This document shows, piece by piece, positions 366 through 52,945 of a stretch of DNA of 64,000 bases. The notes beneath the pieces are model-generated. The model was not told the DNA's origin. It did not search any database and saw only the letters and a program-made list of their open reading frames with translations. The translations under genes and the position numbers were made by a program. Each line of letters opens with the position of its first letter. Position 1 is the stretch's first letter. Source of the DNA: a virus (lineage: Duplodnaviria > Heunggongvirae > Uroviricota > Caudoviricetes); IMG/VR virus record IMGVR_UViG_3300022746_000001; one strand, given 5' to 3'.

Positions 366-1901
366 ATGACACAATCAGTAACCATCGCCTACAACGCAAC
401 CATTGCCAAATTGCATGAACCGACAAGACAAGCAAAACTGGCTGTGCAGCGGCTTGTTTCCTATCGCGTCGAAGGCGCAGAACACACCGGCGCGTTCAAA
501 ACCGGCAACTGGGATGGTCGCTCATCCTTCTTTGACTTCCGAAGCGGCACCTTTCCTGCTGGCTTCGTGAACTTTGTCGCCGCGCACCTCACCCGCGCCG
601 GCTACACCGTTCATCGCGTTCGAAAGCCCCTGCCCTTGCCACAAGGCCCAGAGAACCCAAAGGTCGATGAGTTTCCCGAAGACCCTCGCTACGACTATCA
701 GATGGAGGTAGTCAATCGGCTCTGCAAGCACGGCTCCATGATTGCGCAAGTAGCGACAGGTGGCGGTAAGTCTCGTATCGCGCGCCTGGCGTTCATGCGA
801 ATCAATCGCCCCACTCTGTTTCTGACAACGCGCGGCATTCTGATGTACCAAATGAAGGACACGTTCGAGACAGACCTTGGCGTGGCTTGCTCGGTGCTTG
901 GCGACGGTCAGTTTGGGCATGTCGGCCCCGACGGACGCCAGTACATTAAGAAAATGTCGGTGGGCATGGTGCAGACGCTGGTGTCGCGCCTTCAAGAGCC
1001 AAACCCCGACGATCCTGTGGACGTGCAAAACCGTCAGACCGCCATTCGCAACCAAACCATCGAGCTGCTTGGCAAATTCGAGTTCGTTATCGGCGAAGAG
1101 GCTCACGAAGCGTCGGGCAACAGCTATTACGAGATTCTGCGCCACTGCAAGAACGCTCACTACCGCTTGGCGCTAACTGCCACACCGTTCATGAAGGACG
1201 ACGAAGAGTCCAACATGCGTCTGATGGCTGCGTTCGGCCCTATCGGTATCAAGGTCACGGAGAAGATGTTGATCGACCGTGGCATCTTGGCGCGACCCAT
1301 CTTCAAATACCTGCCTCTGACCGTCAAACCCAACCACCTCATGCGCGGCGCCGGATGGCAAGCGGCGTACCGCCTTGGTATCGTTCAGAACGAGCAGCGT
1401 AACGGCATGATTATTGAAGAAGCCGCCCGCGCCGCGCGTTATGGCTTATCGACAATGATTCTCATCCAGCAAAAGAAGCATGGAGCGATTCTTGAGCAGG
1501 CGCTGAACGCGCGTGGTGTCAAAGCTCGGTTCATTGACGGTGACAGCGACCAAACAGAACGCAAACACGCGCTCAAGCAGCTCGCCAATCGTGAAATTGA
1601 TGTGCTGATAGGTTCGACAATTCTTGACGTTGGTGTAGACGTTCCTGCGGTCGGTATGGTGATCTTGGCCGGCGGCGGCAAAGCAGAGGTTGCCCTGCGT
1701 CAGCGTATCGGTCGCGGTCTGCGCGCCAAGAAGAAAGGCCCGAACATCGCCTTGATTGTGGACTTTGCCGATGACTTCAACATGCACCTGAAGTCTCATG
1801 CGCAGCAGCGCCACCAGATCGTGAAGGACACCGAGGGTTTCGGCGAGAATATCTTGAAGGCTGGCGCAGACTTTGACTACAAGGCTTTGGGGTTGATTTA
1901 A
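366..1901 (+). CDS. superfamily 2 DEAD/DEAH-type helicase
   Basis: VATGGGKS (Walker A), GEEAHEA (motif II), LTATPF (III), QRIGRGLR (VI); start moved to ATG 366 (track ORF begins at a TTG at 339). Confidence 0.8.
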   Translation: MTQSVTIAYNATIAKLHEPTRQAKLAVQRLVSYRVEGAEHTGAFKTGNWDGRSSFFDFRSGTFPAGFVNFVAAHLTRAGYTVHRVRKPLPLPQGPENPKVDEFPEDPRYDYQMEVVNRLCKHGSMIAQVATGGGKSRIARLAFMRINRPTLFLTTRGILMYQMKDTFETDLGVACSVLGDGQFGHVGPDGRQYIKKMSVGMVQTLVSRLQEPNPDDPVDVQNRQTAIRNQTIELLGKFEFVIGEEAHEASGNSYYEILRHCKNAHYRLALTATPFMKDDEESNMRLMAAFGPIGIKVTEKMLIDRGILARPIFKYLPLTVKPNHLMRGAGWQAAYRLGIVQNEQRNGMIIEEAARAARYGLSTMILIQQKKHGAILEQALNARGVKARFIDGDSDQTERKHALKQLANREIDVLIGSTILDVGVDVPAVGMVILAGGGKAEVALRQRIGRGLRAKKKGPNIALIVDFADDFNMHLKSHAQQRHQIVKDTEGFGENILKAGADFDYKALGLI

Positions 1902-6868: not shown

Positions 6869-7087
6869 CTACTCGTCGTCGAGATTCACGTAGTCAGGGG
6901 CATCCTGACGCTCAACCACGCGAATCGTCACACCTTCACAGACCGTTTCCAAGACGCTCTTGGTCGTTCTAACCAGCGCATCGAACGCTTCCTGCTCTAT
7001 GCGCTCGTCACGATTGTTCAAGGTCGCAAGCACTTGGAAGTCACCATCATCGCGGTCAAAGCCTATTGAAACGACTTCATGTGTCAT
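6869..7087 (-). CDS. hypothetical protein
   Basis: GGAG RBS, ATGA overlap with upstream gene. Confidence 0.5.
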   Translation of the reverse strand: MTHEVVSIGFDRDDGDFQVLATLNNRDERIEQEAFDALVRTTKSVLETVCEGVTIRVVERQDAPDYVNLDDE

Positions 7088-22478: not shown

Positions 22479-22835
22479 TTAGTCCGCTAAAGTTTCTGGC
22501 ACTTCAACTTCGACACCGAACGCCAAGAACACACGTTGAATCATCCAGCTTGCAATTAGCTTGGAACCATTTGAGAGCGTGTAGCCTATCGGGTTGAAAG
22601 GCTCGATTTGCATAGACTTGCAAAGCTGAAGCCAATTAGCTTCAACAATCGGCCCTGCGACAGACCAATCGTTTGCGTAGTCGGGGATGGGAAACGGTTG
22701 GTCGCCCATGAAAGCGTCTACCGTCTCAAGATAGTGGAGACCGTCTTCAGTGAGCGTTAAGCCCTCTGCTTTAGCCACAGCGTAGTTCAACGCTGCACCA
22801 GTCAGGCGTGAGGTCAATACCTTCTTCATTGTCAT
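22479..22835 (-). CDS. hypothetical protein
   Basis: AAAGGA RBS. Confidence 0.5.
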   Translation of the reverse strand: MTMKKVLTSRLTGAALNYAVAKAEGLTLTEDGLHYLETVDAFMGDQPFPIPDYANDWSVAGPIVEANWLQLCKSMQIEPFNPIGYTLSNGSKLIASWMIQRVFLAFGVEVEVPETLAD

Positions 22836-23374
22836 ACCAGTCCTTTCGGTTTATAAAAGCCACGAGCAACGCCTTTGAAGAAGCAGTTCATCATGACGGA
22901 AGTGTCGTAATCAGCCGAGTGAGCAGCGCCTTCGTCGTAGCTGACGCCAAGCGAGAAGCAAAGCTCACCGAGTTTGGGGAACTTGCCGTTAGGTGTAGCC
23001 CAACGAGCGTTCTCCATCGTGCAAAATATGTTCAGCTCAGGCAGCGTGAGACCAGCGTCCAGCAGCTCTGAAGCGATGAATGGGGCATCGAACCCTGCGT
23101 TATGAATCACAACGAGGTCAGACGACGCCAAAATGCGGTGTACGTCAGATGCTATGTCTGCGAACTTGGCGCACCCTGCAACGTCGGTATAGACGATGCC
23201 GTGAGCGTCAGAAGCGCCTGGGTCGATAGAGCGTTCAGGGTCAACCCGTTTGACGAACTCCTCGATGGGCTTTTTGGTATCACTGTCAAAGCTCAGGAGC
23301 GCAATCTCAATGATGCGGTGGCCTTTAGACAAGTCCAAGCCTGTGGTTTCAAGGTCAAGACCCGTAATTCGCAT
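22832..23374 (-). CDS. DnaQ-like 3'-5' exonuclease (DEDDh)
   Basis: GLDLETTGLD (exo I), HNAGFD (exo II), HSADYD (exo III); AAGGAGG RBS. Confidence 0.7.
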   Translation of the reverse strand: MRITGLDLETTGLDLSKGHRIIEIALLSFDSDTKKPIEEFVKRVDPERSIDPGASDAHGIVYTDVAGCAKFADIASDVHRILASSDLVVIHNAGFDAPFIASELLDAGLTLPELNIFCTMENARWATPNGKFPKLGELCFSLGVSYDEGAAHSADYDTSVMMNCFFKGVARGFYKPKGLV

Positions 23375-23570
23375 TGACTGCCTCCTTTTTAAATTCACGC
23401 AAGCGGTAGCCATCTTTAGGTTCGACGTGCCAGTAGTGAGCGCAACCGCCCTCTTCCACTGGCGCGGTCACGAAAAACGACTGACGGAACTCATTTGGTA
23501 TGGCGCGGTGGCGATAGCAGGTCTCTGCTTGCTCGCACCCTTTACCGTCGCACATGGATATATCTGGCAT
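23355..23570 (-). CDS. hypothetical Cys-containing protein
   Basis: AAAGGAG RBS. Confidence 0.45.
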   Translation of the reverse strand: MPDISMCDGKGCEQAETCYRHRAIPNEFRQSFFVTAPVEEGGCAHYWHVEPKDGYRLREFKKEAVNANYGS

Positions 23571-24455: not shown

Positions 24456-24656
24456 TTAAATTGCGTGTTCGACCGTGAACAGGAACGAGAAAGCCACCAC
24501 GGTCACGACAATGGCTACCAAGATCAGGAACATCCAATTGCCTACCTTACGAGCGACGGCGATCGCTTGCTTGGGGTTCTTCTTGGAGTACCAAATGAGG
24601 AACAACGAACCGAAGAAAATCGGCAAGATGAAAAAGAAGATGACTCGGAAGATCAT
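24456..24656 (-). CDS. small 2-TM membrane protein (NfeD-like partner of SPFH?)
   Basis: hydrophobic; immediately downstream of SPFH gene. Confidence 0.4.
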   Translation of the reverse strand: MIFRVIFFFILPIFFGSLFLIWYSKKNPKQAIAVARKVGNWMFLILVAIVVTVVAFSFLFTVEHAI

Positions 24657-25843
24657 TGGAACTCCGTTGTCTCGCCTTTGCGCAGCAAGTAAGCGTCCGA
24701 AACGCTCTTTGCAATCTTGCGGCCGTACTGAGGGTGTTGAGCCTCAGATGCCGACTTCACTACAACGCCTTCGCGAATCTGGCTGATATAGTTGCGCGTG
24801 ATGGTTGGCTGCACGAGTGTGTTGCCATTGGTGTGTTCGAGGACGACCTCTTTACTGTAGGGGCCGACAAAAAGAACAGGTACGATTGGCACATCCATCT
24901 CTGTAGCGGCCGCGCAGAACTCGTCCCAATGGAACCACTGCTCATTGCCTCGTGTGCCGCAGACAGCGTCAAACATCCGAAAGCCAAGCTGTTCGCGGTC
25001 ATAGGTCAGGTCTTGGACGCCAGCGCCACTGAGCGTCAGTCCATAGACTTCGCCCACCATGAAGTGCGGCTTGTTGACTTCGTTGGCGGCGTCACCGAAG
25101 TATTTCAGCGCCTTCTCAAACAGGTCATGCTTCTTGGCGCACTGGATGTAGAGGTTGGTTTCGTCAGTAAAGTCCAGAACGAAGCCTTGACGACCCATGC
25201 CTTTGCTGGAGATGGTCACACGCCCTTTGTAGTAGCGCTCATTCGCCATTGATTCAGGCACGACACCGATCTGCATGAGCGTTCCATGAATCTTCTCGGT
25301 GATGACAACTGTCTCGCCATCTTCGAACAGTTCAGGGCGCTTCTTCAGGTTCTCGAAGTCGTAGCCGAGCGTTGCTGCCAAATCGACACCAGCGATCTTG
25401 CCAGCCATGTGCGATGGGATGTGCGGCTCCCACTTTGTAATACCTAAAGCCTCAGAAGCATCTTCACCTTCGGCCAAAAGCGCCATGCCCTGATTGCCTT
25501 CATGCTCTTGCGCGACTACCATGATGGAAGTGTCGTTGTAGGGCGTGCCAGGAACCATCAAGCCTTGCGAGACGATGCCACGCAGCTTGATAGCCTTCAC
25601 ACGGTTGCCCACGCTGCCGGCGAGACCACCCTTGCCACGAGTCGAGTCCCACAGTCCCATTTCTTCGAGCAGCCACTGAGGTACGAGCGCTTGCTCAGGG
25701 ATGTAGACGCCAAGATCGCCGTCTTTGAACTGGCCCTTCTTGACGATTGATTGATAGTCGCCAACCCGAGCTATCTCGATGGCGTCTGCGTTCGGATGCG
25801 GTTCGATTTTGACGCGAACCACTTCACAGGCAAATGTACTCAT
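24653..25843 (-). CDS. putative ATP-dependent RNA ligase with N-terminal tRNA-binding OB domain
   Basis: N-terminal EPHPNADAIEIARVGD resembles CsaA/EMAP tRNA-binding fold; candidate nucleotidyltransferase lysine in VITEKIHGT. Confidence 0.5.
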   Translation of the reverse strand: MSTFACEVVRVKIEPHPNADAIEIARVGDYQSIVKKGQFKDGDLGVYIPEQALVPQWLLEEMGLWDSTRGKGGLAGSVGNRVKAIKLRGIVSQGLMVPGTPYNDTSIMVVAQEHEGNQGMALLAEGEDASEALGITKWEPHIPSHMAGKIAGVDLAATLGYDFENLKKRPELFEDGETVVITEKIHGTLMQIGVVPESMANERYYKGRVTISSKGMGRQGFVLDFTDETNLYIQCAKKHDLFEKALKYFGDAANEVNKPHFMVGEVYGLTLSGAGVQDLTYDREQLGFRMFDAVCGTRGNEQWFHWDEFCAAATEMDVPIVPVLFVGPYSKEVVLEHTNGNTLVQPTITRNYISQIREGVVVKSASEAQHPQYGRKIAKSVSDAYLLRKGETTEFQ

Positions 25844-33056: not shown

Positions 33057-33140
33057 AGATTTCTCCGGTAGTTAAGTCACTAATGACTTTGAGATTATAG
33101 AGAGCGAAAACTTATAGAAGACGGCAATGCGTCAAGTCCC

Positions 33141-33169
33141 CAAATGAAAACACCTGCTAAATGCAGGTG
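33141..33169 (-). terminator. rho-independent terminator at 3' end of tRNA array
   Basis: stem CACCTGC/GCAGGTG with T-runs on both sides. Confidence 0.55.
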
Positions 33170-33175
33170 CTGTTT

Positions 33176-33263
33176 TGGCGGAAGCGGTGAGATTCGAACT
33201 CACGGAACCTTGCGGTTCGACTGGGTTCAAGCCAGTTGCCATAGACCACTCGACCACACTTCC
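33176..33263 (-). tRNA. tRNA-Ser (anticodon UGA), CCA encoded
   Basis: long variable arm; anticodon loop CTTGAAC; T-arm GGTTCGAATCTC. Confidence 0.8.
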
Positions 33264-33270
33264 TAAATCT

Positions 33271-33355
33271 TGGTGCCCAGAGTCGGACTCGAACCGACAC
33301 GCCTCGCGGCGACGGCTTCTGAGGCCGTTGCGTCTACCAATTTCACCACCTGGGC
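33271..33355 (-). tRNA. tRNA-Leu (anticodon CAG), CCA encoded
   Basis: anticodon loop CTCAGAA; long variable arm; T-loop GTTCGAGTC. Confidence 0.8.
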
Positions 33356-33356
33356 T

Positions 33357-33432
<76 letters not shown>

Positions 33433-33535
33433 ATCATGAATGAAGGCTTTCGTCCAGCTCGGGATAGGTCGGTAGTTAGCCGTTTCAGTTTCACCCGTCC
33501 CCTGGGAATCGAACCCAGAAGCCTTCATTCATGAT
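33433..33535 (-). other. about 100-nt element with 15-bp terminal inverted repeats containing a tRNA T-arm-like hairpin (tRNA-like fragment / structured RNA / miniature insertion)
   Basis: ATCATGAATGAAGGC ... GCCTTCATTCATGAT flank CTGGGTTCGATTCCCAG (minus strand) and tandem TGAAAC repeats; no complete cloverleaf found. Confidence 0.35.
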
Positions 33536-33610
33536 GGTGCCGCCTTGAGGAATTGAACCCCAGACCTTCTGCTTACAAGGCAGCTGCTCTACCAACTGAG
33601 CTAAGGCGGC
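33535..33610 (-). tRNA. tRNA-Thr (anticodon UGU), CCA encoded
   Basis: GCCGCCTTAGCTCAGTTGGTAGAGC; anticodon loop CTTGTAA; 7-bp acceptor stem. Confidence 0.75.
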
Positions 33611-33614
33611 TTAA

Positions 33615-33691
33615 TGGTCGGAGATGCAGGATTCGAACCTGCGACCCTCTGCTCCCAAAGCAGATGCGCTACCAGACTGCGCTAATCTCCG
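33615..33691 (-). tRNA. tRNA-Pro (anticodon UGG), CCA encoded
   Basis: CGGAGATTAGCGCAGTCTGGTAGCGC; anticodon loop TTTGGGA. Confidence 0.8.
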
Positions 33692-33695
33692 ATAC

Positions 33696-33770
33696 TGGTA
33701 CTCGGTGCGGGAATCGAACCCGCCTTACCGCCGTGAAAGGGCGGTGTCCTAACCGATAGACGAACCGAGC
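33696..33770 (-). tRNA. tRNA-Glu (anticodon UUC), CCA encoded
   Basis: anticodon stem-loop CCGCC-CTTTCAC-GGCGG; T-arm GCGGGTTCGATTCCCGC. Confidence 0.75.
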
Positions 33771-33861
33771 GTTCCATCAAGTCTGTTCTCTCGTGGGTCA
33801 AGCTACTCCTTTGCCGTCAAGAGGCTTGTTTCACCATTCCTCTTAGAGAGGACAGACTTCA

Positions 33862-33937
33862 TGGCTCCCCAGGGTGGGTTCGAACCACCGACACATGGAT
33901 TAACAGTCCATTGCTCTACCAACTGAGCTACTAGGGA
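33862..33937 (-). tRNA. tRNA-Asn (anticodon GUU), CCA encoded
   Basis: TCCCTAGTAGCTCAGTTGGTAGAGC; anticodon loop CTGTTAA. Confidence 0.8.
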
Positions 33938-34034
33938 ATGACGGTGCGTATGGAGTTGTACCCCAGACGTTTGTCGGCTTTTATAGTCCCCACACCTTTA
34001 GGACTACCGTGTCTCTGTTCTTCTTGCAAGAAAC

Positions 34035-34111
34035 TGGTTGCGGGGGCAGGACTCGAACCTGCGACCTCTGGATTATGAGTCCAGCGCTCTAACCTACTGA
34101 GCTACCCCGCT
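34035..34111 (-). tRNA. tRNA-Met (anticodon CAU; elongator or Ile2-type), CCA encoded
   Basis: anticodon loop CTCATAA; A1xA72 unpaired; no GGG/CCC initiator anticodon stem. Confidence 0.7.
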
Positions 34112-34170
34112 TCAATCTTTCAATGTATGAATCTTATATAAGTTTTCGCGGGTTTGCAAGTCACCACTGA

Positions 34171-34341
34171 CTTATTTTAAAGATCGCCTGATTATTTCTT
34201 CTTGAAAGCTGCCTCATGCTCAGAATAGCGTTCCAATGACTCGCGCAATGTTGTGAACATCGCGATAGCTTGGCGCTCTCTTTGAGCTTCTAAGACGGGG
34301 TCAATCACGTCCTCTTCAGTGTCGGTTTGGTTCTCAGTCAT
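34171..34341 (-). CDS. small acidic protein (56 aa)
   Basis: GGAG RBS 5 nt before ATG; MTENQTDTEEDVIDPVLEAQRERQAIAMFTTLRESLERYSEHEAAFKEEIIRRSLK; below track cutoff. Confidence 0.4.
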
Positions 34342-36860: not shown

Positions 36861-36937
36861 AAAACTCCTTGTTGTGTTGTTAATTTGGGGGACGGTGATT
36901 CTATTGCAGTCACGAGTGACTTACCATATAAGGACGA

Positions 36938-38713: not shown

Positions 38714-38740
38714 GTAGTCACGGGTGACTTATTCTCTCAG
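38714..38740 (-). promoter_or_regulatory. palindromic motif ATAAGTCAC-CCG-TGACTACAAT upstream of 38230-38676
   Basis: read directly; about 30 nt upstream of RBS. Confidence 0.5.
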
Positions 38741-41768: not shown

Positions 41769-41789
41769 ATTTCTCCAGTCAGTTGTGAC

Positions 41790-42203
41790 TTATGCCTTAC
41801 GGTAAAAAATGTGCTTGCCAAGCACAGCGGTCTTAACCAAGTCATGACGCCACACTGGACGCGCATCTTTGGTGTGATAAAAAGTTGCTCCACCATGAGT
41901 GAAGTCGCCGATCTTGCCAGCTAGAACGACCTCTGAAATTCGCACTGCTTTTTTCCATGCGTAGTCATCTTGAGGCAGACCGTTATCTTTCAGATAGAAG
42001 CGGCCATCTTTCTGCTTAACCATCTTCGTTGTCCAAGAGAATTGACGCTTGGCTGTCACAGTCTTGCAGACTTCACTTGGCTTGCCGGCGCGGTTCATTG
42101 TGACTTGCGCGACAGCGTACTGCCCTGGAATCATTTCAGAGCGCGCCTCATGGTAGACGTTCAGTGCGAGGCATAACAGTGCGGATTCGAGAATCATTTT
42201 CAC
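41790..42203 (-). CDS. SleB/CwlJ-family cell wall hydrolase (Hydrolase_2)
   Basis: ALNVYHEARSE...QFSW matches SleB catalytic-domain signature. Confidence 0.65.
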   Translation of the reverse strand: MKMILESALLCLALNVYHEARSEMIPGQYAVAQVTMNRAGKPSEVCKTVTAKRQFSWTTKMVKQKDGRFYLKDNGLPQDDYAWKKAVRISEVVLAGKIGDFTHGGATFYHTKDARPVWRHDLVKTAVLGKHIFYRKA

Positions 42204-46721: not shown

Positions 46722-46805
46722 GGTTACTCCTTGTGTGTCATAAAACTCTGACGCTTGATATTAGCGTCTGAATCGCGGGGTTGTAAGTCACCTTTGACTT
46801 ATCTT

Positions 46806-50989: not shown

Positions 50990-51643
50990 TTAGAAATGAT
51001 TTTCCATTGTGGTGTTCTCCAACTTACGCAGCTCGGCTAATGCACTGCGAACTTGCGCCTCTGTGACACCGCCCAACATCACGATGAATTGCCCTACATA
51101 GCGTGGCGATACATGGTTCATGAAGCGGCGCTCATAACCGAGACTTTTGGCGTACTGAATGTGCGCTTCGGCTTTTGCTAACTCTTCCAAGAACTCCTTC
51201 GGTGGCTCAATGACCCACTCCATAATCAAGAACGCCAGAGGTGAAAGTTGTTCACGAATCTGAGCCACGAACTCGCTACAGGCGTAGATTGCTTCAGGTG
51301 TCGCGTTGTCCTTCATCAGCACTTCTTCGAGATTGAAGTCTTCGCCGTTGGACTTGTTGTTCATCTCCTCGATGCTGACAACGCCATAGCGAAGACGCTC
51401 GTCAATCATCTTTTGCGCCCAAGAGTTAATCTTGTTGAAGGCAGCCATGTAGTAGTAAGTCGTGAATCGGTTGCCCAAACTCGCGTCGAACCCCTCGTAT
51501 GCCTTCAGGAAGACGAGAGACATTTCTTGGAACACATCGTCATAGTCCAAACCAATGCCTGCCGCCTGAAGTCGAGCGTAGCCCTTCTTCGAGACGGCGT
51601 GGACAAGACCTTTGTTCTCCTTGTAGAACTGGTCTACGTTCAT
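50990..51643 (-). CDS. sigma-70 family (ECF-like) RNA polymerase sigma factor
   Basis: region 2 DDVFQEMSLVFLKAYEGFDASLGNRFTTYYYMAAFNKI; C-terminal HTH VMLGGVTEAQVRSAL. Confidence 0.65.
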   Translation of the reverse strand: MNVDQFYKENKGLVHAVSKKGYARLQAAGIGLDYDDVFQEMSLVFLKAYEGFDASLGNRFTTYYYMAAFNKINSWAQKMIDERLRYGVVSIEEMNNKSNGEDFNLEEVLMKDNATPEAIYACSEFVAQIREQLSPLAFLIMEWVIEPPKEFLEELAKAEAHIQYAKSLGYERRFMNHVSPRYVGQFIVMLGGVTEAQVRSALAELRKLENTTMENHF

Positions 51644-52911: not shown

Positions 52912-52945
52912 GGGATGCAAGTCACTTGTGACTTACCCTGCAACA
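52912..52945 (-). promoter_or_regulatory. palindromic motif GTAAGTCAC-AA-GTGACTTGCAT upstream of CobS-like gene
   Basis: read directly. Confidence 0.5.

What the first reader, a model, noticed from the sequence alone, without database searches (positions are those of the whole stretch)
33433..33535. Odd 100-nt element with 15-bp terminal inverted repeats and a tRNA T-arm inside the tRNA array
Between tRNA-Trp and tRNA-Thr, where every other spacer is 0-90 nt of simple sequence, there is an element bounded by the perfect inverted repeat ATCATGAATGAAGGC / GCCTTCATTCATGAT. On the tRNA strand it contains a canonical T-arm hairpin (CTGGG-TTCGATT-CCCAG) immediately after the 5' arm plus tandem TGAAAC repeats, but no complete cloverleaf could be folded by eye. 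It could be a degenerate or permuted tRNA, a tRNA-like decoy, a small structured RNA, or a miniature inverted-repeat insertion that targeted the array.
Basis: seen in the sequence. Interest (0 to 1): 0.65.

Follow-up and report, generated by a model that had tools for sequence, protein, structure and literature searches.

The report
New phage tRNA-mimic RNA family
The odd 100-nt spacer in this phage's tRNA operon is a real, conserved structured RNA: a long hairpin carrying a rearranged tRNA "elbow". It belongs to an uncatalogued family found in about a dozen otherwise unrelated uncultivated phages, and its function is still unknown.

Summary
The inverted repeat is 19 bp and perfect, the longest in the window. 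It shares its outer bases with the CCA of tRNA-Thr and G1G2 of tRNA-Trp.

On the tRNA strand the element folds as a three-way junction:
- a 17-19 bp helix, P1;
- a canonical T arm;
- a closed 9-bp acceptor-like stem (AS) with an A-rich bulge and a small hairpin;
- an 11-nt D-loop-like strand containing CUGG.

This is the part order of a circularly permuted tRNA. YrlA Y RNAs and two-piece tmRNA tRNA-like domains have the same order. ARAGORN and all 4227 Rfam models fail to recognise the element, and there is no Ro60, tag ORF, G3·U70 or encoded CCA.

Pattern scans found four sequence variants in sister phages and nine more members in unrelated IMG/VR contigs, near terminase genes or tRNAs. Covariation is strong: 11 compensatory pairs in an independent RNAalifold prediction. 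A family model scores members 77-93 bits and true tRNAs or tmRNA 18 bits or less.

Best reading: a stable ncRNA excised by tRNA processing that presents a tRNA-elbow mimic to a tRNA-recognising, probably host, factor. The function is inferred, not shown. A MITE, a pseudogene and a true tRNA or tmRNA are disfavoured.

The parts
33519..33537 (-). P1 5' strand, CCAUCAUGAAUGAAGGCUU. Bases 33535-33537 are also the encoded CCA of tRNA-Thr. The processed RNA would start at 33534.
   Evidence: 19-nt perfect inverted-repeat arm. Family P1 alignment: 96.8% of cells paired and 7 compensatory pairs. RNAalifold predicts P1 independently.
33502..33518 (-). T arm: CUGGG / UUCGAUU / CCCAG. There is no linker nucleotide on either side.
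   Evidence: Read from the sequence. The T loop is invariant in 13 members. Three of the five stem pairs covary, with up to 4 pair types.
33461..33501 (-). Closed acceptor-like stem (AS).
- A 9-bp stem, GGGACGGGU/ACCUAUCCC, with an invariant G·U and a mostly conserved C·A.
- A 10-nt A-rich bulge, GAAACUGAAA.
- A 3-bp hairpin with loop CUAACUA.
   Evidence: MFE fold. 4 compensatory pairs in the AS across 11 members. G·U present in 11 of 11. The C·A becomes U-A or C-G in 3 members.
33450..33460 (-). J3/1, an 11-nt single strand, GAGCUGGACGA. It is a D-loop analogue whose conserved C(U/A)GG is a candidate G18G19 mimic.
   Evidence: C(U/A)GG is present in 12 of the 13 aligned members; the exception is L188. 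The alternative 3-bp D stem drawn by ARAGORN is not supported by covariation.
33431..33449 (-). P1 3' strand, AAGCCUUCAUUCAUGAUGG. Bases 33431-33432 are also G1G2 of tRNA-Trp. The processed RNA would end at 33433, at the RNase P site.
   Evidence: tRNA-Trp coordinates are.
33535..33610 (-). tRNA-Thr(UGU), immediately upstream. Its 3' maturation would create the 5' end of the element.
   Evidence: ARAGORN. Rfam tRNA, 69.1 bits.
33357..33432 (-). tRNA-Trp(CCA), immediately downstream. RNase P cleavage at its 5' end would create the 3' end of the element.
   Evidence: ARAGORN. Rfam tRNA, 63.1 bits.
33149..34172 (-). The transcription unit that carries the element.
- A phage promoter/operator-like palindrome, AGTCAC-N3-GTGACT, at 34159-34172.
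- Eight tRNAs: Met, Asn, Glu, Pro, Thr, Trp, Leu, Ser.
- An intrinsic terminator at 33171-33149.
   Evidence: tRNAs. Terminator. The palindrome gives 32 strand-hits in the window against 0.73 expected, most of them just upstream of minus-strand ORFs where I compared them with the ORF lists.
33771..33861 (-). E2, a sister module. It has a P1-like hairpin with the same basal sequence (CCAUSAAG / CUUGAUGG), a conserved junction UAAGAGG...CCCAC(C)A and a variable top, but no tRNA-like core.
   Evidence: Fold z = -3.6. Homologues in 5 related arrays. 5 covarying P1 pairs.

Best explanation
The element is a gene for a small, stable non-coding RNA of about 102 nt. It belongs to a previously uncurated phage RNA family.

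Shown:
- It lies inside a promoter-to-terminator tRNA operon, flush against the CCA of tRNA-Thr and the +1 base of tRNA-Trp.
- It folds as a three-way junction. The parts are a 17-19 bp helix P1, a canonical T arm stacked end-to-end on a closed 9-bp acceptor-like stem, and an 11-nt strand carrying a conserved CUGG.
- This fold and many unpaired nucleotides are conserved, with compensatory changes, in 13 phage sequences.

Inferred:
- RNase P cleavage at tRNA-Trp and 3' maturation of tRNA-Thr release the RNA with its ends locked in P1.
- The GG of the linker docks on the T loop as G18/G19 do in tRNA. This would make a tRNA 'elbow' plus acceptor/T minihelix mimic without an anticodon or an aminoacylatable end.
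- The mimic acts in trans by occupying or recruiting a factor that recognises the top half of tRNA. No phage gene is a constant neighbour, so the factor is probably host-encoded. Candidates are RNase P, T-loop modification enzymes, CCA-adding enzyme, SmpB or the ribosome, or a tRNA-targeting defence nuclease.
- P1 serves as the excision and stability handle, and possibly as a second binding site.

It works like YrlA or the tmRNA tRNA-like domain but is a member of neither.
For: Structure:
- MFE -43.1 kcal/mol, z = -5.6.
- Among four clade variants, 96.5% of cells are paired and 5 pairs are compensatory, against 0-1 in slid controls.
- In the family core (11 sequences), 92.4% of cells are paired, with 8 compensatory pairs in 21 cells. 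0 of 500 shuffles reach this, and slid controls give 46-59% paired.
- In P1 across 13 sequences, 96.8% of cells are paired and 7 pairs are compensatory.
- RNAalifold, given no structure, predicts the same fold: 33 pairs, 11 of them compensatory.

Family:
- Model R2 scores 12 members at 77-93 bits and gives one hit in the window (33450-33518, minus strand, 87.3 bits).
- True tRNA and tmRNA T arms score 18 bits or less.

Strand:
- The T loop UUCGAUU is canonical only on the tRNA strand.
- There are 35 G·U cells, including one G·U invariant in 11 of 11. These would be A·C mismatches on the other strand.

Selection:
- E1 is 94% identical to L007 and 85% to L176. The flanking tRNAs are 75-100% identical, the RNR gene 78% and ORF131 75%.

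Expression context:
- Exact abutment to CCA and to +1 of a tRNA.
- A phage promoter-type palindrome 49 nt upstream of the first tRNA and a terminator after the last.

Precedent:
- YrlA RNAs have the same part order, are modified by TruB and DusA and cut by RNase P, and occur in phages (PMC4201824).
- T4 RNAC and RNAD are small RNAs of unknown role made from the tRNA cluster (PMC3014915).
Against: - There are no expression, processing or binding data of any kind.
- No partner protein is identified. No Ro60/TROVE, SmpB or other tRNA-binding protein was seen among the 50 window ORFs scanned, and about 40% of the genome lies outside the window.
- Family members have no common neighbouring gene.
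- The acceptor-like stem is closed and C-rich on its 5'-equivalent strand, so it is a poor RNase P or aaRS substrate.
- Several A·C mismatches are tolerated in the stems.
- P1 (8 bp, a 2x2 loop, 9 bp in most members) looks like a phage RNase III processing site. P1-only modules (E2) sit in the same operon. A purely cis processing role therefore remains possible.
- The ARAGORN 're-permutation' test did not discriminate. 27-81% of controls with a shuffled or random linker were also called tRNA.
Confidence: 0.5

Rival explanations
1. A cis-acting RNA processing or 'punctuation' module. P1 would be an RNase III site, or the tRNA-like core an RNase P entry site. Its only job would be to separate and stabilise the flanking transcripts (tRNAs here, terminase-region mRNAs elsewhere). 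The excised piece would be a by-product.
For: - In most members P1 is 8 bp, then a 2x2 internal loop, then 9 bp. That is the shape of T7-type RNase III sites (my own knowledge).
- Members sit in intergenic regions next to terS/terL or between gene modules.
- P1-only modules (E2) occupy other spacers of the same operons.
- In long forms the P1 base competes with a second conserved helix, UGUUGGUG/CACCAACA, which suggests a conformational or processing role.
Against: - A processing hairpin does not need an invariant T loop, an invariant G·U, or the conserved GAAA/AAACGG/UAAC and C(U/A)GG nucleotides.
- Related arrays mature the same Thr-Trp junction with a 7-nt spacer and no element.
- The acceptor-like stem is closed, and its bases at the expected RNase P site are C(-1)/C(+1).
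Confidence: 0.2
2. A reduced, circularly permuted tmRNA that keeps only the tRNA-like domain, as in jakobid mitochondria. It would be cut in the AS loop, receive CCA, and engage SmpB and the ribosome, or act as an SmpB decoy.
For: - A sister phage clade carries a genuine permuted tmRNA at the syntenic locus downstream of RNR. L006 scores 137 bits on tmRNA_permuted and 124.8 bits on beta_tmRNA. L182 carries the same one.
- The part order is the same. The junction strand is 11 nt against 12 nt, with U-GG...CGA in both. L185 has CUGGUUUAC against the tmRNA consensus UGGUUUCGAC.
- The L006 tmRNA does not encode CCA either.
- tmRNAs that are permuted and consist only of the tRNA-like domain exist (PMC3590771).
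Against: - No Rfam tmRNA family hits E1 at E<=10 in a 121-nt search.
- E1 model R1 lists no match to the L006 or L182 tmRNA. Family model R2 gives only 14.7 bits there.
- Position 3:70 is A·C or A-U, not G·U.
- The discriminator-equivalent base is G and is paired.
- The stem is 9 bp and closed.
- The 5'-equivalent strand starts with C.
- There is no tag ORF (ARAGORN).
Confidence: 0.07
3. A YrlA-type Y RNA that tethers a Ro60 (Rsr) protein.
For: - The layout is the same: a helix formed by the two ends, a T arm, a closed acceptor-like stem and a D region (PMC4201824).
- The window copy contains GACGAAAG, which matches the Ro60-contact motif GNCGAAN0-1G.
- YrlA is known in phages.
Against: - YrlA RF02553 does not hit the element. 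The only hits were 24-25 bits on tRNA junctions, against a gathering score of 69.
- The motif lies on the 3' side. It is lost in L176 (GCCGACAG) and in the other family members.
- There is no D stem-loop.
- No TROVE or Ro60 ORF lies within about 30 kb on either side: all seven ORFs of 400 aa or more are identified as other proteins.
- No Ro60 was seen in the ORFs scanned around other members.
Confidence: 0.05
4. A DNA-level element that merely landed in the array: a miniature inverted-repeat transposable element, a recombination site or a packaging site.
For: - Terminal inverted repeats.
- Presence/absence polymorphism between closely related arrays. L003 and L009 have Thr-GTTTCAT-Trp.
- The palindromic TCATGA at both ends could mimic a target duplication.
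- Several members lie near terminase genes or contig ends.
Against: - A single copy in 64 kb.
- Always on the sense strand of the operon.
- E2 ends are not direct repeats.
- A canonical T loop, and wobble pairs that work only on one strand.
- Loop-nucleotide conservation across unrelated phages.
- No transposase is associated with it.
Confidence: 0.05
5. A decaying, rearranged tRNA pseudogene with no function.
For: It contains a T arm and an acceptor-like stem but no anticodon arm.
Against: - Five of the changes among the four clade variants are compensatory pairs.
- The element is conserved at the same rate as functional tRNAs.
- Homologues occur in unrelated phages outside tRNA arrays.
Confidence: 0.03

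Closest known systems
YrlA (Y RNA-like, Rfam RF02553; Chen et al. 2014, PMC4201824)
   Same: - The 5' and 3' ends pair in a long helix.
- The rest is a circularly permuted tRNA-like domain: a T arm, then a closed acceptor-like stem-loop, then a D region.
- It is also found in phages.
- It is thought to present a tRNA mimic to tRNA enzymes.
   Different: - There is no Rfam match.
- There is no D stem-loop, only an 11-nt strand.
- The acceptor-like stem is far longer (41 nt against about 13) and has its own conserved bulge and hairpin.
- There is no conserved GNCGAA motif.
- There is no Ro60 gene nearby.
tRNA-like domain of two-piece (circularly permuted) tmRNA, including the jakobid mitochondrial tmRNA that consists only of that domain (Rfam RF04321, RF01850, RF02544; PMC3590771, PMC9004378)
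   Same: - The gene order of parts is identical: helix strand, T arm, acceptor 3' strand, loop, acceptor 5' strand, unpaired D-loop analogue with GG, helix strand.
- There is no D stem.
- A real permuted tmRNA sits at the same locus in a sister phage clade.
   Different: - There is no G3·U70, no A73 and no CCA.
- There is no mRNA-like domain.
- The acceptor-like stem is closed and 9 bp long.
- No tmRNA model detects it.
T4 RNAC and RNAD (small stable RNAs of the T4 tRNA gene cluster; PMC3014915)
   Same: They are small non-tRNA RNAs co-transcribed and co-processed with phage tRNAs. Their function has been unknown for decades.
   Different: - E1 has no significant blastn match in 50,697 GenBank phage records.
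- Any structural relationship was not tested.
Circularly permuted tRNA genes of Cyanidioschyzon merolae (my own knowledge)
   Same: The 3' half (T arm and acceptor 3' strand) is encoded upstream of the 5' half, and the two ends pair in a helix.
   Different: - Those genes yield real tRNAs through a circular intermediate and carry an anticodon loop at the junction.
- Here the helix is a 17-19 bp perfect stem with no anticodon.
- Bacteria lack the splicing endonuclease.
Phage RNase III processing hairpins, e.g. T7 R sites (my own knowledge)
   Same: P1 is a ~20-bp intergenic helix, with a small internal loop in most family members.
   Different: RNase III sites do not carry a conserved tRNA-like three-way junction at the top.

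Membership tests
Canonical tRNA | A cloverleaf with an anticodon arm, detected by tRNA models | tested here: not met
   ARAGORN calls the 8 neighbouring tRNAs but not the element. Rfam tRNA RF00005 gives no hit at E<=10 in a 121-nt search.
Canonical tRNA | A T arm with a G53-C61 pair and loop T54-Psi55-C56-R57-A58 | tested here: met
   CUGGG-UUCGAUU-CCCAG at 33518-33502. The loop is invariant in 13 members.
YrlA (RF02553) | Scores at or above the Rfam gathering threshold of 69 bits | tested here: not met
   There is no YrlA hit on the element at E<=10. The only hits were 24-25 bits on tRNA-tRNA junctions.
YrlA (RF02553) | Encoded within about 4 kb of a Ro60/Rsr (TROVE) gene on the same strand | tested here: not met
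   All ORFs of 400 aa or more in the 64-kb window are other proteins: helicase, RNR, SbcC, PolIII alpha, CobT, integrase and DNA ligase. Neighbours within about 9 kb are nucleotide-metabolism genes.
YrlA (RF02553) | A conserved GNCGAAN0-1G motif near the 5' end | tested here: not met
   GACGAAAG is present only at the 3' side of the window, L007 and L033 copies. It is lost in L176 and absent from the other members.
YrlA (RF02553) | Part order: helix, (V), T stem-loop, closed AS stem-loop, D stem-loop, helix | tested here: inconclusive
   The order of helix, T and AS matches. The D element is an unpaired 11-nt strand, not a stem-loop, and the candidate 3-bp D stem is contradicted by L176.
tmRNA (one-piece, two-piece, mitochondrial) | Detected by the tmRNA covariance models or by ARAGORN | tested here: not met
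   No tmRNA-family hit at E<=10. ARAGORN finds none. As a positive control, L006 scores 137 and 125 bits.
tmRNA (one-piece, two-piece, mitochondrial) | tRNA-Ala identity: G3·U70, discriminator A73, and a CCA end (encoded or added) | tested here: not met
   Position 3:70 is A·C (A-U in L176). The 73-equivalent base is G and is paired. There is no CCA after the stem. Whether CCA is added cannot be tested here.
tmRNA (one-piece, two-piece, mitochondrial) | Permuted gene order with an unpaired D-loop analogue that contains GG | tested here: met
   The order of parts, and the 11-nt strand GAGCUGGACGA, compare with the consensus aAaUGGuUUCGA.
Permuted tRNA gene (C. merolae type) | The joined ends reconstitute an anticodon stem-loop | tested here: not met
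   The ends form a perfect 17-19 bp helix with no loop. The in-silico re-permuted constructs needed an artificial anticodon loop, and the controls were also called tRNA.
MITE / mobile DNA element | Multiple dispersed copies in either orientation, with target-site duplications | tested here: not met
   One core in the window. Always on the sense strand. The empty site in L003 gives no clear duplication.
New family defined here (model R2) | The core: a T arm, then the closed stem GGGRCGRGK...CCNCCYURYCC with an invariant G·U, then a GAAA..AAACGG.UAA bulge and hairpin, then a C(U/A)GG strand | tested here: met
   Window 33450-33518 (minus strand) scores 87.3 bits, E = 9e-19. The other members score 77-93 bits.

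The most novel reading that the evidence does not exclude
E1 and its P1-only sister modules (E2) would be a modular phage toolkit of tRNA-part mimics.
- E1 would be an elbow and minihelix mimic.
- E2 would be an acceptor-end mimic, because its junction reads G...C-A-CCA.
- Both are mounted on a common sequence-conserved helix whose base is itself a CCA·UGG pairing.
- Phages would deploy them as decoys or sensors against host factors that read tRNA ends and elbows. One example would be blunting tRNA-targeting anti-phage nucleases or nucleotidyltransferase toxins. Another would be sensing uncharged tRNA CCA ends through the competing CCA-containing helices seen in the long forms.
Probability: 0.15. 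Interest if true: 0.85.

Novelty: new variant of a known kind. Interest (0 to 1): 0.62.

Why it matters
- Phage tRNA arrays are now seen as counter-defence and translation-tuning devices. The non-tRNA RNAs embedded in them have been unexplained since T4 RNAC and RNAD.
- This work defines a concrete, covariation-supported family with a calibrated model. It is absent from Rfam 15, from 50,697 GenBank phage records and from PLSDB plasmids. Two exact-pattern scans of 185,579 prokaryotic species genomes also found no member.
- The family reuses the circularly permuted tRNA-top-half design of YrlA and two-piece tmRNA, but without Ro60 or trans-translation features.
- If it binds a host tRNA-handling factor, it would be a third, independent solution to tRNA mimicry in bacteria and phages. 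It would also give a handle on which tRNA-recognising step phages need to manipulate.
- It shows as well that 'spacers' in phage tRNA operons can be genes.

Tried and rejected
1. Rfam, all 4227 families, on 2.5 kb, on 121 nt and on the whole window. Only the 8 tRNAs reached threshold. The miRNA-precursor hits (15-17 bits) merely reflect the hairpin.
2. In-silico re-permutation followed by ARAGORN. tRNA was called in 4 of 9 window constructs and 2 of 9 L176 constructs. However, 27-81% of controls with a shuffled or random linker were also called, so the test is uninformative.
3. An alternative cloverleaf-like conformer with a GCU/AGC D stem. Rejected: L176 gives A·C there, while the competing P1 pairs covary.
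4. The Ro60 motif GNCGAAN0-1G. It is not conserved.
5. Origin from a host tRNA, a host tmRNA or an attP site. The 22-mer spanning the T arm and AS has 0 hits in the genome collection. A 21-mer gave one chance hit inside an Acidithiobacillus coding region. The integrase gene is 23 kb away.
6. The first pattern searches, anchored on GCTGGACGAA(AG), returned almost only chance matches, because that strand is variable.
7. Coding potential. A 13-codon ORF (AUG at 33531) exists. It has no Shine-Dalgarno sequence, and its start lies inside P1. Its 4 nonsynonymous and 3 synonymous differences from L176 track stem compensation. Rejected by reading the sequence.
8. L186/L187 and L198 matched patterns but are not members (no R2 hit, or 14.7 bits).
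9. Look-ups meant to extend the genome beyond the window ends failed: no gene with exactly those products is on record, possibly because the ORF starts I used were wrong. About 40% of the genome therefore remains unscreened for a partner protein.
10. blastn of long-form members against GenBank phages and plasmids: no match.
Full report
**1. The observation**

The window carries a minus-strand tRNA operon: Met, Asn, Glu, Pro, Thr, Trp, Leu, Ser at 34111-33176. Every tRNA encodes its CCA. The flagged stretch fills the whole gap between tRNA-Thr and tRNA-Trp.

The inverted repeat is 19 nt, not 15. It is perfect (33431-33449 / 33519-33537) and is the longest perfect inverted repeat within 200 nt in the 64 kb. 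Its outer three pairs are the CCA of tRNA-Thr against U(-1)G1G2 at tRNA-Trp.

The T arm CUGGG-UUCGAUU-CCCAG is present on the tRNA strand. The TGAAAC duplication is also present. The RNA folds to -43.1 kcal/mol, z = -5.6.

ARAGORN does not recognise it. None of the 4227 Rfam families gives a meaningful match at E<=10; the few hits of 8.7-17 bits reflect only the hairpin or the T arm. This holds even when only 121 nt are searched.

**2. Anatomy on the minus strand**

- P1: 17 bp inside the processed RNA, or 19 bp with CCA/UGG.
- T arm at 33518-33502, joined to P1 with no linker.
- AS at 33501-33461, joined to the T arm with no linker. It is a 9-bp stem (GGGACGGGU/ACCUAUCCC) containing a C·A mismatch next to a G·U, closed by a 10-nt A-rich bulge and a 3-bp hairpin.
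- An 11-nt single strand, GAGCUGGACGA, at 33460-33450.
- The P1 3' strand.

The T-stem 3' strand runs straight into the first AS strand, exactly as tRNA positions 65 to 66 do. AS therefore occupies the place of the acceptor stem, and the 11-nt strand occupies the place of the D region.

The gene order is that of a circularly permuted tRNA top half. There is no anticodon arm and no free acceptor end.

**3. Homologues in sister phages**

The window comes from an uncultivated phage of about 106-112 kb. It encodes PolIII alpha, class II RNR, ThyX, CobS/CobT, RecA, SbcCD, an RNA ligase and an integrase. Its closest cultured relatives are Rhizobium RHEph10-like and Pseudomonas nickie-like phages, at about 44% PolIII identity.

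Related contigs have the tRNA operon in the same place, but with shuffled content. The element is present, always directly after tRNA-Thr, in:
- L007/L036;
- L033;
- L177 (identical to the window copy);
- L176, which is more diverged and where the next tRNA is Arg.

It is absent from L003 and L009, where Thr and Trp are 7 nt apart.

Among the four distinct sequences, 18 columns vary. Ten of them form 5 compensatory pairs, four in P1 and one in the T stem. One change makes a G·U, and one repairs the AS C·A to U-A. Overall 96.5% of cells are paired, against 36-50% in slid controls.

The element diverges like its neighbouring tRNAs: 94% and 85% identity, against 75-100% for the tRNAs and 75-85% for most neighbouring genes.

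**4. A wider family**

A pattern combining the P1 ends with the T loop, and then two patterns from the conserved core, recovered nine further members in unrelated IMG/VR contigs (with 89, 97, 98, 110). These are L185, L188, L189=L192, L190, L191, L193, L194, L195, L196, L197 and L199.

None is recognised by Rfam or by ARAGORN.

Family statistics:
- Core alignment: 92.4% of cells paired, 8 compensatory pairs in 21 cells. 0 of 500 shuffles reach this, and slid controls give 46-59%.
- The T loop is invariant.
- The G·U is present in 11 of 11. The C·A is present in 8 of 11, and becomes C-G or U-A in the rest.
- GAAA, AAACGG and UAA are invariant or nearly so.
- The linker carries C(U/A)GG in all members but one.
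- P1, from hand-joined strands: 96.8% of cells paired and 7 compensatory pairs. The consensus is CCAACACG-CA-UGGGGAUUG / CAGUCCCCA-GC-CGUGUUGG.
- The basal CC...GG is conserved whether or not a tRNA is adjacent. In the window the family's own basal CCA·UGG is simply shared with the two tRNAs.
- RNAalifold, given no structure, returns the same fold for nine full-length members: 33 pairs, 11 of them compensatory.
- Covariance model R2 scores members at 77-93 bits, finds exactly one core in the window (87.3 bits), and gives real tRNA and tmRNA T arms 18 bits or less.

There are three arrangements:
- a short nested form, as in the window;
- a long nested form, with a second domain closed by UGUUGGUG...CACCAACA, a helix that competes with the P1 base;
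- a tandem form, in which P1 carries a variable top and the core sits in that second slot.

Genomic contexts differ:
- upstream of terS/terL (L185);
- next to terL (L190; L197 has the same downstream flank, but its ORFs were not scanned);
- about 500 nt from terL (L192, L193);
- between a nuclease and a helicase (L191);
- near an ERF recombinase (L194);
- directly upstream of three tRNAs (L195).

No match was found in:
- 50,697 GenBank phage records;
- PLSDB plasmids;
- 185,579 species genomes, searched with two exact window-derived patterns; the single hit was a chance match.

**5. How it most likely works**

Shown:
- The operon context. A phage-typical palindrome, AGTCAC-N3-GTGACT, occurs as 32 strand-hits against 0.73 expected. 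One copy lies 49 nt upstream of tRNA-Met, and a terminator follows tRNA-Ser.
- The exact abutment to tRNA ends.
- The conserved fold.
- The tRNA-like T arm and acceptor stack.
- Strand-specific wobble pairs: 35 G·U cells.

Inferred:
- RNase P at tRNA-Trp and 3' maturation of tRNA-Thr release a ~102-nt RNA whose ends are locked in P1.
- The linker GG docks on the T loop like G18/G19.
- The resulting elbow and minihelix mimic engages a factor that reads the top half of tRNA.

Members share no neighbouring gene, so the partner is probably a host factor. I put about 0.9 on 'a conserved structured RNA of a new family with a tRNA-like core' and about 0.5 on the trans-acting mimic mechanism.

The main rival (0.2) is a purely cis processing module. 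P1 has the shape of an RNase III site, and P1-only modules sit in the same operons.

**6. Comparison with known families**

*YrlA.* The layout is the same and there are phage precedents (PMC4201824). However:
- there is no Rfam hit;
- there is no Ro60 gene within about 30 kb;
- there is no D stem-loop;
- the GNCGAA-type motif seen in the window copy lies on the wrong side and is not conserved.

*tmRNA.* A sister clade (L006, L182) has a bona fide permuted tmRNA at the syntenic locus, scoring 137 and 125 bits. This suggests a betaproteobacterial-type host. It also shows that the permuted tRNA-like-domain design circulates in these phages. The junction strands resemble each other. Jakobid mitochondria show that permuted tmRNAs consisting only of the tRNA-like domain exist (PMC3590771). 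Against membership:
- E1 lacks G3·U70, A73, CCA and a tag;
- its stem is closed;
- no tmRNA model sees it;
- models R1 and R2 do not recognise the L006 tmRNA (R1: no listed match; R2: 14.7 bits).

*Others.* It is not a canonical tRNA, not a C. merolae-type permuted tRNA gene, and not a MITE. In context it recalls T4 RNAC and RNAD (PMC3014915).

A bulk catalogue of about 8,500 IMG/VR candidate RNAs exists (PMC10690425). I could not check whether it contains this motif.

**7. The operon's other spacers**

The 91-nt Asn-Glu spacer (E2, 33771-33861) is a hairpin-bounded module. Its basal sequence is nearly the same as E1's (CCAUSAAG/CUUGAUGG), it has a conserved junction UAAGAGG...CCCACCA, and its top is hypervariable. 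It recurs at different positions in five related arrays, with 5 covarying P1 pairs. E1 and E2 therefore look like two cargo versions of one scaffold.

**8. Verdict**

The finding is real and non-random, and is best described as a new variant of the tRNA-mimic ncRNA theme. Its function is unknown and its distribution is rare but phylogenetically broad. Interest is moderate to high.

Noticed in passing
window 33771-33861 (-); L007 8904-8998 and 9154-9243; L002 8653-8742; L004 8961-9057; L003 8691 to about 8830: E2 is a second family of ~90-140-nt hairpin-bounded RNAs in the spacers of these tRNA operons.
- Each starts directly after a tRNA CCA and ends in ..GAUGG.
- It has a 14-17 bp stem with 5 covarying pairs and a hypervariable top.
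- Its conserved junction reads like a tRNA acceptor end: G...C-A-CCA. The window copy has ACGA instead.
- It has no Rfam hit.
   Followed up: partly
L006 9634-10043 (+); L182 5108-5550 (+): A sister phage clade carries a bona fide circularly permuted two-piece tmRNA at the locus where the window clade has its tRNA operon, downstream of RNR.
- It scores 137 bits on tmRNA_permuted and 124.8 bits on beta_tmRNA.
- The tag is AGKPGCPPHSFGCA*.
- CCA is not encoded (the sequence reads ACAA).
- This suggests a betaproteobacterial-type host.
   Followed up: partly
window, about 20 sites, e.g. 34159-34172, 33075-33088, 36908-36921, 38716-38729, 41777-41790, 46786-46799, 52920-52933: The palindrome AGTCAC-N3-GTGACT gives 32 strand-hits against 0.73 expected. 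In the cases I compared with the ORF lists it lies just upstream of minus-strand genes, often after a TAnAAT-like hexamer. It is conserved upstream of the homologous genes in L002-L011. It is probably a phage promoter/operator motif, and the phage encodes a protein with a sigma-70 region 2 domain at 50990-51643.
   Followed up: partly
window 33938-34034 (-): A third long spacer, 97 nt, lies between tRNA-Met and tRNA-Asn. It folds weakly (z = -1.3) and has no homologue in any fetched locus. In L007, Met and Asn are adjacent. Its origin is unknown.
   Followed up: partly
L189 about 700-880, L191, L196, L199 (long forms); L190, L194, L195, L197 (tandem forms): Outside the window clade the family has a conserved 3' sequence, CCACCAACAAC. 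It can pair with UGUUGGUG(G), which is the 3' strand of the P1 base. This helix and the P1 base are mutually exclusive. The tRNA-like core sits either inside P1 or inside this second helix, which amounts to a natural domain permutation or a possible conformational switch.
   Followed up: partly
L188 about 455-498; L185 about 7020-7061: In two members that are not next to a tRNA, P1 is preceded by a short hairpin that runs into N(N)CCA (GCCGGC...GCCGGC-A-CCA and CCGGG...CCCGG-UG-CCA). This minihelix with a CCA end stands where the window has tRNA-Thr.
   Followed up: no
window 24653-25843 (-) and 22832-23413 (-): The phage encodes an RNA ligase with an N-terminal PHA02142 OB domain (PF09414; PHROG 968) and an RNase T/DnaQ-family exonuclease, 8-10 kb downstream of the tRNA operon. 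They could be RNA repair or processing functions, or the exonuclease could be the PolIII proofreading subunit. No link to the element was tested.
   Followed up: no
L177 1-1171; L178-L180: A 106-kb ENA contig has an identical element and an identical downstream gene. Its upstream array differs: ARAGORN calls Met, Tyr, Thr, and the 176-nt Met-Tyr gap contains an uncalled tRNA-like stretch ending in CCA followed by an E2 module. Several Logan contigs break 147 nt upstream of the downstream gene. The tRNA operon therefore looks like a recombination and assembly hotspot.
   Followed up: no
L014 about 930-1000 (+): An IMG/VR contig has two adjacent T-arm-like hairpins followed by GCTGGACGAAAG, and an ARAGORN 'tRNA-???' nearby. 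It scores only 17.7 bits on R2 and is probably unrelated, but it is odd.
   Followed up: no
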